NCBI RefSeq assembly: GCF_988243305.1
Contig: NZ_OZ547136.1
Direction: 5' to 3' (one strand)
Length of the DNA stretch: 64,000 bases
Within the stretch, counting starts at the first letter, position 1, and the number at the start of each line of letters is the position of its first letter. Below, piece by piece: positions 51,001 to 54,000 of the stretch. The position numbers were made by a program.

Positions 51001-54000
51001 CCAGATATGGCTTTTGTCGCTGTCCTGAATCGGTAGACAAAGAATGCCTTCAACGTTAAAAGCGCGGCGGGCAAAAAGGCCACAAACGTGGGTCATTACG
51101 CCCGGATGGTTGCGAACGGTGAGCTCCAGAATTACGTTGTCATGAGTTGTGTTTTGCATGGCTTATTCCCCCACCATTTCAGTATTCGCCGCACCTGGCG
51201 GCACCATCGGGTACACTTTTTCTTCGGCATCAATACGCACATGGATCAGCGCCGGACCTGGTCGATTGATGATTTCCTGCAATGCAGCCTGCGGATCGGC
51301 TTCGTTATTCAAATCACAGGTTTCGAGGCCGAATCCGGCGGCAATTTGCATAAAGTTGATTTTGCCCGGATAGGTGGCAGCAAAAACGCCCTGCTTGTAG
51401 AACAGACTCTGTTGCTGATGCACCAGCCCCAGCGCTTCGTTGTTCATCAGAATGATTTTGACATCCAGCTGGTTTTCGCTGGCGGTCGCCATCTCCTGAA
51501 TATTCATCATCAGGCTGCCGTCGCCGGAGAAGCACAACACTTTGCGATCCGGGTTCGCCAGCGCCGCGCCAATCGCCGTAGGCAGGCCAAAACCCATCGT
51601 GCCCAGCCCACCGGAGGTCAGCCACTGGCGTGGGCGATTGAGCGGATAAGCTTGCGCGGTCCACATCTGATGCTGACCCACGTCGGTGGTGATAATCGCG
51701 CTGTCATCGACACAGGCGGCAACGGCGTTGATCAGGCCGTAATGGCTTAACGGATCGCACGCTTTCGGGATTGGACACGGGAATTCGCGCTGCAAATCCG
51801 CTACCAACTGGTGCCACTCTGCACGCGGTTGCGCTTCCACCAGCGGGATCAACTGCGCCAGCACGTCATCAACATCCGCCTGGATCGCCACATGTGGCTG
51901 CTTGATTTTGCCCAGCTCTGCGCGGTCGATATCGACATGAATAATTTTGGCATTCGGACAGAACTGCTCGGTTTTGCCAATCGCCCGGTCATCAAAACGC
52001 GCACCGAGAACAATCAGCAGATCCGCCTCCTGCAAAATATAGTTGGTGCTGCGCACACCGTGCATCCCCAACATACCCAGCGACAGCGGATGTGCTTTTG
52101 GCAACATGCCCAGCGCCATTAAAGTCATGGTGGTAGGCAGTTGCGCTTTCTCCGCCAGTTCACGCACTCGCGCAGGCGCATTGATCACACCACCGCCCAG
52201 ATAAAGCACCGGGCGTTTGGCAGCATTAATCATTGCCGCTGCGTTACGAATGCTTTCTTCGCTAAAGGCGGGCGCGACGGCTTTTTCTGCCACCGCGGGC
52301 TGTGCTTCAATCTCAAAAACTGCCGTTTGCACATCTTTAGGAATGTCTATCCACACCGGGCCAGGGCGGCCTGATTGCGCAATGCGGAAGGCATCGCTCA
52401 TGACCTGCGGGAGTTCTTCGATATGTCTGACCAGATAGTTGTGTTTGGTGATGGGGATAGAGATGCCGTAGGTGTCCACTTCCTGGAAGGCGTCGGTGCC
52501 AATCATCGAGGCAGGAACCTGACCGGTGATGCAAATCAGCGGGATGGAATCCAGCCGCGCATCGGCAATGGCGGTCACCAGGTTAGTCGCACCCGGTCCG
52601 CTACAGGCCATACAGACCGCCGGTTTACCGTCGGTGCGCGCCATTCCCTGAGCGATAAACCCCGCGCCCTGTTCATGGCGAGCCAGAATATGGCGGATTT
52701 GCGTGCTTTGGCTTAAGGCATCGTAAACAGGCAGGATAGAACCGCCCGGAATGCCCGTCACAATCTTAATGCCCTGCTGTTCCAGGAAATGAACGATAAA
52801 TTCTGCGCCGGTAAAGCGCTTACGCGTCGATGTTGTGCCCGAACTTGCCATGCTCCAGTCCTTTTCTTCTGGGCCGACTTTCCGGGAGGTGCTTAAACGA
52901 AAAACCCCGCCCGGTTTGCGCCGGCGGGGTTTTGGAATCGTGTGTTGTTCCAGTCCCTACGGCGCATTGCCGACGACCACCACCACACGCACGACGACCA
53001 CTGCGGCGGATGGCGCAGTTGGTAGTAGTTTTGCGTTGAACATGGAAGTAGTCATTGGGGACCTTGTTGGTTTTGTGTTTAACAATATTTATACAAGCAC
53101 AGCTTTACAGGGGAGACAATGGAAAATTTTTCAGCAAGGGAAAATTGAGGGGTTGATCACGTTTTGTACTGAATTGCAGGTAACAAAAAACCCCGCCGGA
53201 GCGAGGTTTCGTCAGTCGCCTGCGGCTGGTAACCGCAAAGCACACTGTATTATGTCAACACTGAAAGTATACGTGTTCCGCGCAGAACGCGCAATTTCGG
53301 CACGAATTTTGACGTATTTAGTGCATAGTTGAGTATCGATCACAGTTTGCGTTTTGTCTAAATATTACTGTTTATTTATACAGTAAACTTCTATAATATC
53401 ACTGTACGCAATGTGTTATGTGGGGGCCGCATCGTTACCCGGCGCACTAAGTCCTGGCTGAAACGGGTGGTGCCGTCAGCGCCTTAACCCCGCGTGAGCA
53501 CACTGTGTTATGTCAACAAGCACAACGTTTCTCCTTGAGATACCGCGTGCACAACAGCTGGCAACAGGCAGCGGAAAGGTACGTCAGCTGGCAGTGCTCC
53601 TGAACCACAGGAGACGCGTATGAGCCTGGTGGATATCGCCATTCTTATCCTCAAACTCATTGTTGCAGCACTGCAACTGCTTGATGCTGTTCTGAAATAC
53701 CTGAAGTAATTCAGATTCAAGTCGCACTAAAGGGGAGCGGGTAACCGCTCCCCTTTTATATTTAGCGTGCGGGTTGGTGTCGGATGCGATGCTGATGCAT
53801 CTTATCCGCCCTACCATCCCTCCCGGCAACATTTATTGCCGCTTTTGTTTACATATTCTGCCGCTAAACAATTCCCCATTCCTGGCGTATATCTGGCTAA
53901 CATTTATCAATGTGATAGATTCCTCTCCCGCATTTATGGGAATGCGTAGTGACTTATTCTAATTATTTTTATAAAAGCATCCGTGATAATGAAAAGGCAT

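What the first reader, a model, noticed from the sequence alone, without database searches (positions are those of the whole stretch)
52900..53055. ilvB leader peptide and attenuator, with a leader variant
The hand-translated leader MTTSMFNAKLLPTAPSAAVVVVRVVVVVGNAP has Phe at position 6 where I recall Leu in K-12. The substitution lies outside the Val-rich control codons and is probably neutral.
Basis: partly seen in the sequence, partly recalled or inferred. Interest (0 to 1): 0.15.

Follow-up and report, generated by a model that had tools for sequence, protein, structure and literature searches.

The report
Common Phe6 allele of ivbL leader
This is the well-known E. coli ilvB leader peptide and attenuator, and the 'variant' Phe at position 6 is an ordinary natural allele that is commoner among sequenced E. 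coli than the K-12 Leu.

Summary
On the minus strand, 53055..52957 encodes MTTSMFNAKLLPTAPSAAVVVVRVVVVVGNAP, followed by a strong terminator (52932..52899) 48 bases upstream of ilvB. K-12 and B strains have CTC (Leu) at codon 6 and the window has TTC (Phe). This one C-to-T change at base 53040 is the only difference from K-12 in 321 bases.

It is not a rare variant. The Phe allele is RefSeq protein WP_001312198.1 and is present in about 3,205 of 5,426 complete E. coli genomes (59%). The exact K-12 allele is in 1,874. Outgroups (E. albertii, Salmonella, Citrobacter) carry Leu, so Phe is derived.

ilvB attenuation responds to Val and Leu, and K-12 Leu6 is counted among the 12 control codons, so the change lowers the Leu codons from three to two. 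Even so, position 6 carries 13 different residues across 90 Enterobacterales leaders, while the CUA-CUA pair at codons 10-11 is kept in 69 of 90. Two-Leu leaders occur in 20 of 85 distinct leaders. The variant base is unpaired, and both alleles give the same predicted structure and energy.

Verdict: known element, known allele, most likely near-neutral, low interest.

The parts
52957..53055 (-). ivbL leader ORF, 32 codons plus UAG stop: MTTSMFNAKLLPTAPSAAVVVVRVVVVVGNAP
   Evidence: Translation. Annotated ivbL in 5,418 E. coli genomes. Pfam PF08049 75.7 bits and NCBIfam NF007579 80.1 bits, both full length.
53038..53040 (-). Codon 6, TTC (Phe). K-12 has CTC (Leu). The polymorphic base is 53040.
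   Evidence: Base-by-base comparison with DH10B, REL606, O157, EC958, SC434 and strain 720632. Allele census. The base lies in a 5-nt internal loop of the predicted protector hairpin and is unpaired in both alleles.
53023..53028 (-). Tandem CUA-CUA Leu codons 10-11, the conserved leucine-sensing codons
   Evidence: Leu-Leu in 76 of 90 and CTA-CTA in 69 of 90 distinct Enterobacterales leader regions. CTA makes up 205 of 266 leader Leu codons.
52972..53001 (-). Val control run, VVVVRVVVVV (codons 19-28, nine Val codons). It is also the 3' strand of the protector hairpin.
   Evidence: Translation. Nearly invariant at nucleotide level across 66 aligned leaders. Pairs with codons 1-8 in the minimum-energy structure. 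That helix is 85.9% paired across species.
52973..53055 (-). Predicted protector hairpin: the 5' part of the ORF (53055-53032) pairs with the Val-codon region (52991-52973), enclosing inner helices
   Evidence: Minimum-energy fold. Pair counts are, including one fully compensatory inner pair (CG in 40 sequences, UA in 26, none unpaired).
52954..52966 (-). 5' strand of the predicted antiterminator (UGCGCCG..GGG, covering codons 30-32, the stop codon and 3 more bases)
   Evidence: Pairs with 52917-52928 on the transcript truncated at the terminator loop. 98.3% of cells paired, 8 of 10 pairs invariant. Masked by a modelled ribosome at codons 28-33.
52899..52932 (-). Attenuator terminator: AAACCCCGCCGG / loop / CCGGGCGGGGUUU followed by a U-run. 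Its 5' arm and loop (52917-52928) form the 3' strand of the antiterminator.
   Evidence: Folds alone to -20.2 kcal/mol. 98.1% paired and almost invariant in 66 species. The simple consensus scan did not list it.
51163..52851 (-). [quoted passage not shown]
   Evidence: ORF list. RefSeq annotation under the match.

Best explanation
The region is the ivbL leader and transcription attenuator of the E. coli ilvBN operon, carrying the commonest natural allele of the leader peptide (Phe6/Pro15, identical to RefSeq WP_001312198.1). Proposed mechanism: a ribosome translates the 32-codon leader while RNA polymerase transcribes towards the terminator. If charged Val-tRNA and Leu-tRNA are plentiful, the ribosome reaches codons 28-33 and the stop codon and covers UGCGCCGUAGGG. 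The terminator hairpin (52932-52899) then forms and transcription stops before ilvB. If the ribosome is delayed at the nine Val codons or at the CUA-CUA Leu codons, that segment stays free. It pairs with the terminator's 5' arm as an antiterminator, and transcription continues into ilvBN. The C-to-T change at 53040 turns K-12's Leu6 (CUC) into Phe (UUC). It does not touch any predicted helix, and it removes the least conserved of three Leu codons. Its effect on regulation is most likely nil or small. Shown here: sequence identity, allele frequencies, ancestral state, conservation pattern and predicted structures. Inferred: the stalling logic and neutrality.
For: Identity. Allele frequency: the exact Phe 45-mer is in 3,205 of 5,386 matching genomes, all with at least 80% coverage so the variant base is included. 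The exact K-12 Leu 45-mer is in 1,874. The Phe6 total is 3,210, split into 1,534 Phe6/Leu15 and about 1,676 Phe6/Pro15. Polarity: Leu6 in E. albertii, two further Escherichia representatives, Salmonella arizonae, Citrobacter, Pseudescherichia and Leclercia. Tolerance at position 6: L30, M18, N10, R7, F6, T5, Q4 and others in 90 leaders; Phe occurs there independently in Enterobacter, Leminorella, Limnobaculum and Pragia; where it is Leu the codon is mostly the common CTG, whereas codons 10-11 are CTA-CTA in 69 of 90. Two-Leu leaders occur in 20 of 85 distinct leaders. RNA: same minimum-energy structure and energy for both alleles, variant base unpaired, ensemble energies differ by 0.24 kcal/mol. 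Antiterminator and terminator geometry with the stall scan, and conservation of both helices. Literature: Val and Leu attenuation through 12 control codons, with loss of the Leu response when all Leu codons are replaced (PMC11187965).
Against: K-12 Leu6 is CUC, one of the three Leu codons whose translation slows most under Leu starvation (PMC3783181). In the truncated-transcript model a stall at codon 6 leaves the antiterminator as free as a stall at codons 10-11 does. A modest loss of Leu sensitivity therefore cannot be excluded. The antiterminator is supported by conservation, not by covariation, because its pairs are nearly invariant. I could not compare it with the originally published structure models because those papers are not held. 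At equilibrium the terminator always wins in the model, so the switch is argued on kinetics rather than shown. Allele frequencies come from a database biased towards clinical lineages.
Confidence: 0.8

Rival explanations
1. Regulatory tuning. Losing the starvation-sensitive CUC Leu codon makes AHAS I expression measurably less responsive to leucine limitation in Phe6/Pro15 strains, so E. coli lineages differ in Leu sensitivity (two Leu codons here, three in K-12-type and B1-type leaders).
For: Leu codons are functional control codons (PMC11187965). CUC is starvation-sensitive (PMC3783181). A modelled stall at codon 6 leaves the antiterminator free. On the Phe6 background a second change, Pro15 to Leu through CCA to CTA, restores a third Leu codon using the same rare control codon, and it is found in 1,534 genomes. 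In a race model, delay scales with the number of starved codons (principle in PMC1183508).
Against: Position 6 is not conserved as Leu (30 of 90), and where it is Leu the codon is usually the insensitive CTG. Leaders with only two Leu codons are common in other genera (20 of 85). The Phe6/Pro15 allele persists in about 1,676 genomes from several lineages. The Pro15Leu change looks like a single historical event, so compensation cannot be told apart from hitch-hiking.
Confidence: 0.17
2. The change acts through RNA rather than codon identity, by altering leader folding, ivbL translation initiation or GcvB sRNA pairing.
For: With C at 53040 the base pairs with G52988 at probability 0.31, against 0.001 with U. 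Mean accessibility of the -15..+19 initiation window shifts from 0.374 to 0.396. GcvB represses ivbL through its R1 region (PMC9299463).
Against: The minimum-energy structure and energy are the same, and the ensemble difference is only 0.24 kcal/mol. The GcvB sites reported are in the ivbL 5'UTR and the ivbL-ilvB spacer, not at +16 of the ORF. The column is unpaired and highly variable across species.
Confidence: 0.02
3. Sequencing or assembly error in this window.
For: It is a single-base difference from the K-12 reference.
Against: The identical base is found in more than 3,200 independent complete genomes, and the 321-base stretch is 100% identical to several of them. The allele has its own RefSeq protein accession.
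Confidence: 0.01

Closest known systems
E. coli IvbL, RefSeq WP_001312198.1 (e.g. ST131 EC958, SMS-3-5, an HS stock, strain 720632)
   Same: Identical 32-residue peptide. The 190-base leader is identical to SMS-3-5 and the HS stock, and the 321-base stretch is identical to strain 720632.
   Different: Nothing in the leader. B2 strains differ upstream of about 53133 and at 53057.
E. coli K-12 ivbL leader and ilvBN attenuator (RefSeq WP_001300753.1)
   Same: Same gene, position, terminator, Val run and CUA-CUA pair. 320 of 321 bases are identical.
   Different: Codon 6 is CTC (Leu) in K-12 and TTC (Phe) here, giving three Leu codons against two.
E. coli B1-type IvbL, RefSeq WP_001315912.1 (e.g. 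O111:H8)
   Same: Shares Phe6 and everything else in the leader.
   Different: Has Leu15 (CTA) where the window has Pro15 (CCA, base 53012), which restores three Leu codons. Found in 1,534 genomes.
leu operon leader (leuL) attenuator of E. coli and Salmonella
   Same: Ribosome-mediated attenuation that senses Leu through rare CUA codons. Replacing CUA with CUG lowers sensitivity (PMC1183508).
   Different: leuL is monovalent, with four consecutive Leu codons. ivbL is bivalent, with nine Val codons and two to three Leu codons. The sequences are unrelated.
ilvL leader of ilvGMEDA
   Same: A multivalent branched-chain amino acid attenuator, also a GcvB target (PMC9299463; PMC3783181).
   Different: It responds to Ile, Val and Leu, and it has a different peptide and a different operon.

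Membership tests
IvbL leader peptide (Pfam PF08049 IlvB_leader; NCBIfam NF007579, equivalog) | Full-length match above the curated score cutoff | tested here: met
   PF08049 75.7 bits (cutoff 25), residues 1-32 on profile 1-32. NF007579 80.1 bits (cutoff 60), 1-32 on 1-32. The Phe6 peptide scores higher than the K-12 peptide in both.
IvbL leader peptide (Pfam PF08049 IlvB_leader; NCBIfam NF007579, equivalog) | Located directly upstream of ilvB-ilvN on the same strand | tested here: met
   ivbL 53055-52957, ilvB 52851-51163 and ilvN 51159-50869, all on the minus strand. RefSeq annotates ivbL and ilvB under the match in 5,418 genomes.
IvbL leader peptide (Pfam PF08049 IlvB_leader; NCBIfam NF007579, equivalog) | Val-rich control run VVVVRVVVVV near the C-terminus, preceded by Leu codons | tested here: met
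   The same run and CUA-CUA pair are found in 90 Enterobacterales leaders.
Ribosome-mediated transcription attenuator (trp/leu/ilv class) | Intrinsic terminator between the leader ORF and the first structural gene | tested here: met
   Hairpin of -20.2 kcal/mol followed by a U-run at 52932-52899. 98.1% paired across 66 species. The simple consensus scan did not pick it up.
Ribosome-mediated transcription attenuator (trp/leu/ilv class) | Antiterminator that is mutually exclusive with the terminator and overlaps the end of the leader ORF | tested here: met
   52954-52966 pairs with 52917-52928 on the truncated transcript. The pairing is lost when a ribosome footprint sits at codons 28-33. 98.3% paired across species, but nearly invariant, so there is no covariation proof.
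Ribosome-mediated transcription attenuator (trp/leu/ilv class) | Readthrough rises when the cognate amino acids (Val, Leu) are limiting | not testable with these tools
   Reported for the K-12 allele (PMC11187965; PMC3783181). Not measured for the Phe6 allele.
Rfam cis-regulatory leader families | Match to a curated covariance model on the leader strand | tested here: not met
   No Rfam 15 family matches the minus strand of 52899-53088 at E<=1. The only hits there are sub-threshold terminator-like matches on the opposite strand. This shows that no matching Rfam model exists in that release, and it is not evidence against attenuator function.

The most novel reading that the evidence does not exclude
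E. coli lineages carry ivbL leaders with different numbers of leucine sensor codons: two in the window's Phe6/Pro15 type, and three in the K-12 type and in the B1 type. The B1 type regained a third through a Pro15-to-Leu change that creates the rare control codon CUA. This polymorphism may measurably tune how strongly AHAS I is derepressed by leucine limitation, and the B1 change may be a compensatory restoration.
Probability: 0.15. Interest if true: 0.3.

Novelty: already known. Interest (0 to 1): 0.07.

Why it matters
It matters little. The element is a textbook attenuator and the allele is already catalogued. There are two modest take-aways. First, K-12 is not representative at this position, since about 59% of complete E. 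coli genomes carry Phe6. Anyone who uses the K-12 ivbL as a Val/Leu biosensor, or who models its 12 control codons, should know that natural leaders work with two to four Leu codons. Second, the comparative data point to the CUA-CUA pair at codons 10-11 as the conserved leucine sensor, not codon 6. If the minority reading were true, this would be a small natural example of attenuator sensitivity being tuned by gain and loss of single control codons.

Tried and rejected
1. Equilibrium folding of the full leader with a ribosome footprint masked at each codon. The terminator probability stayed near 0.9 for every stall position, so the approach cannot tell stall positions apart. I replaced it with folding of the transcript truncated at the terminator loop.
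2. Rfam scan at a permissive E-value. No family covers this attenuator. It found only istR (real, upstream) and sub-threshold terminator look-alikes on the wrong strand.
3. The consensus promoter and terminator scan found neither the ilvB promoter nor the attenuator terminator, so I do not assign a promoter or transcription start here.
4. The original structure papers (Friden et al. 1982 and Hauser & Hatfield 1983, as I recall the citations) are not held. I therefore could not compare my helices with the published models.
5. A literature search for ivbL polymorphism was badly designed, because ivbL was not a required term, and it returned nothing relevant.
6. Sequencing error is rejected, because the allele is in more than 3,200 genomes.
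7. A phenylalanine-responsive stall at the single UUC codon was considered and set aside. Amino acids with up to five codons in ivbL gave no attenuation response in the reporter study (PMC11187965).
8. Covariation as proof of the terminator and antiterminator does not work, because the pairs are almost invariant and so say nothing either way.

Full report
**Observation.** The ORF lies 105 bases upstream of a 562-codon ORF (52851..51163) and a 96-codon ORF (51159..50869). A 321-base query around it matches 5,418 of 5,426 complete E. coli genomes at 95% identity or more, everywhere annotated as ivbL and ilvB. The peptide matches Pfam PF08049 (75.7 bits, cutoff 25) and the NCBIfam equivalog NF007579 (80.1 bits, cutoff 60) from end to end.

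**The difference from K-12.** I compared the window with six fetched genomes. K-12-derived DH10B and B strain REL606 have CTC (Leu) at codon 6 and the window has TTC (Phe). The single changed base is 53040, and it is the only difference from K-12 in 321 bases.

**How common the allele is.**
- RefSeq already has separate protein accessions for the alleles:

| Allele | RefSeq accession | Example strains |
|---|---|---|
| Leu6 | WP_001300753.1 | K-12, B |
| Phe6 (identical to the window) | WP_001312198.1 | EC958, SC434, strain 720632 |
| Ala2/Leu6 | WP_010904951.1 | O157:H7 |
| Phe6/Leu15 | WP_001315912.1 | O111:H8 |

- To count alleles I used short queries in which the variant base decides the identity band.
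- The window's 45-mer is matched exactly in 3,205 of 5,386 genomes. Every match covers at least 80% of the query, so the variant base is always included.
- The K-12 45-mer is matched exactly in 1,874 genomes.
- A 61-mer from the O111:H8 type splits the Phe6 genomes into 1,534 Phe6/Leu15 and about 1,676 Phe6/Pro15, which is the window's allele.
- Phe6 is therefore the majority state in this collection (about 59%) and K-12 carries the minority one.
- Both curated family models score the Phe6 peptide slightly higher than the K-12 peptide.
- The collection is biased towards clinical lineages, so these are database frequencies and not population frequencies.

**Which state is ancestral.**
- A degenerate pattern for the Val run retrieved leaders from one genome per species.
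- Leu occupies position 6 in E. albertii (CTG), two further Escherichia representatives (CTC), Salmonella arizonae, Citrobacter, Pseudescherichia and Leclercia.
- Leu is therefore ancestral, and the E. coli Phe arose as CTC to TTC.
- Within E. coli, Phe6 sits on at least three backgrounds: one identical to K-12 apart from this base (the window, SMS-3-5 and an HS stock), a B2 type with a further change at 53057 and different upstream sequence, and a B1 type with a change at 53012.

**Is codon 6 a control codon?**
That is literally true but incomplete.
- A reporter study describes ivbL as having twelve Val and Leu control codons. It shows a response to both amino acids, and it reports that replacing all Leu codons with Ser abolishes the Leu response (PMC11187965).
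- The change therefore removes one of three Leu sensor codons, and a sensitive one.
- The comparative data point the other way. Among 90 distinct leader regions, position 6 is L (30), M (18), N (10), R (7), F (6), T (5) and seven other residues. Where it is Leu the codon is mostly the common CTG.
- Positions 10-11 are Leu-Leu in 76 of 90 and are written CTA-CTA in 69 of 90.
- CTA makes up 205 of 266 leader Leu codons. The number of Leu codons per leader is 2 in 20, 3 in 35, 4 in 29 and 5 in 1 of 85 distinct leaders, and it is never fewer than two.
- The conserved leucine sensor is therefore the CUA pair, and a two-Leu leader like the window's is a normal configuration in other genera.

**RNA structure.**
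- Both alleles fold to the same minimum-energy structure at the same energy (-72.7 kcal/mol for 198 nt, -71.0 for 190 nt). The variant base lies in a five-base internal loop.
- At the ensemble level the K-12 C pairs with G52988 at probability 0.31, against 0.001 for U. The ensemble energies differ by 0.24 kcal/mol.
- The fold has three main elements. A long protector hairpin pairs codons 1-8 with the Val codons. A small hairpin covers codons 29-32. The terminator folds to -20.2 kcal/mol on its own.
- Equilibrium folding with a masked ribosome footprint could not separate stall positions, because the terminator always wins.
- On a transcript truncated at the terminator loop, UGCGCCG..GGG (52966-52954) pairs with CCC..CGGCGCA (52928-52917), which is the terminator's 5' arm and loop.
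- This antiterminator is intact for modelled stalls at codons 1-27 and is lost at codons 28-33.
- Across 66 aligned species the terminator is 98.1% paired and the antiterminator 98.3% paired. Both are almost invariant, so the support is conservation and not covariation.
- The protector helix stays 85.9% paired although its 5' strand varies. One inner pair covaries perfectly, with CG in 40 sequences, UA in 26 and none unpaired.

**Mechanism.**
- Established for the K-12 allele in the literature cited above: attenuation responds to Val and Leu.
- Shown here by computation: the terminator, an overlapping antiterminator whose 5' strand spans the end of the ORF, and the position of the control codons upstream of it.
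- Inferred: a ribosome that reaches the stop codon covers the antiterminator strand and allows termination. A ribosome delayed at Val or Leu codons leaves it free and allows readthrough into ilvBN.
- In this race picture the delay adds up over starved codons, so going from three Leu codons to two could in principle lower Leu sensitivity.
- I give that about 0.17. Position 6 is so poorly conserved, and two-Leu leaders are so widespread, that a large effect is unlikely.

**Other routes considered.** GcvB represses ivbL through sites reported in the 5'UTR and in the ivbL-ilvB spacer (PMC9299463), which do not include base +16 of the ORF. A single Phe codon is unlikely to confer a Phe response, since amino acids with up to five codons in ivbL gave no response (PMC11187965). 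Sequencing error is excluded by the allele counts.

**Comparison with what is known.** This is the known ivbL attenuator. The peptide is identical to an existing RefSeq protein, and every defining feature that I could test was met. No Rfam model matched, which shows that no matching model exists in that release and is not evidence against function. I could not read the original structure papers, so my helices are not checked against the published models.

**Verdict.** 'Variant' holds only relative to K-12, and 'probably neutral' is plausible but rests on an incomplete argument. The element is already known and interest is low. The most novel reading left open is lineage-specific tuning of leucine sensitivity, with the B1 Pro15-to-Leu (CTA) change as a possible compensation (probability about 0.15).

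Noticed in passing
window 53012 (homologous base); L127:245: A second ivbL polymorphism in E. 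coli. The B1-type haplotype (e.g. O111:H8, RefSeq WP_001315912.1) carries Phe6 plus Pro15-to-Leu through CCA to CTA. This creates another copy of the rare CUA control codon and restores three Leu codons. It is in 1,534 complete genomes and is essentially never combined with Leu6. Leu15 (CTA) is also the norm in Kluyvera, Buttiauxella, Cedecea and Serratia leaders. The window itself has Pro15.
   Followed up: partly
window 52899-53028: From the CUA-CUA pair to the terminator the leader is almost invariant at nucleotide level across 66 Enterobacterales species, including the synonymous sites of the Val codons. Codons 2-9 and the 5'UTR vary freely. This implies strong RNA-level or codon-level constraint on the 3' two-thirds of the leader.
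   Followed up: partly
window 49309-50616 (minus strand): A 435-codon ORF lies directly downstream of ilvN. It is an accessory gene present in 1,109 of 5,426 complete E. coli genomes, varies from 80 to 99.9% identity between strains, is annotated only as hypothetical protein, and has no Pfam match. The best match (99.9%) is a sediment isolate, NZ_LR778147.1.
   Followed up: partly
window 53185-53314 (minus) and 53620-53709 (plus): The istR sRNA (Rfam RF01400, 150 bits, full length) and a 29-codon ORF MSLVDIAILILKLIVAALQLLDAVLKYLK lie immediately upstream of the ilvB promoter region. By recollection this ORF is the TisB toxin.
   Followed up: no
window 53133-53340; L005 and L006 1-350: B2-type strains (EC958, SC434) are non-homologous to the window and to K-12 upstream of about 53133. 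A small gene, ysdE, is annotated there in place of the istR-side sequence. They keep a GTGATC motif at the position where I would expect the CRP half-site of the ilvB promoter. The CRP assignment is from memory and was not tested.
   Followed up: partly
window 53052: O157:H7 genomes carry a further leader variant, Thr2 to Ala (ACT to GCT), together with Leu6 (RefSeq WP_010904951.1).
   Followed up: no
window 52899-52932: The consensus terminator scan did not report the attenuator terminator. Folding nevertheless gives a -20.2 kcal/mol hairpin followed by a U-run. No Rfam 15 family covers this attenuator.
   Followed up: yes
window 53700-53759 (minus strand): A weak sub-threshold Rfam match to Termite-leu RNA (22.8 bits, gathering score 51, E=0.058) overlaps the end of the 29-codon ORF. 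It consists mainly of a GC-rich hairpin and is probably a terminator look-alike.
   Followed up: no
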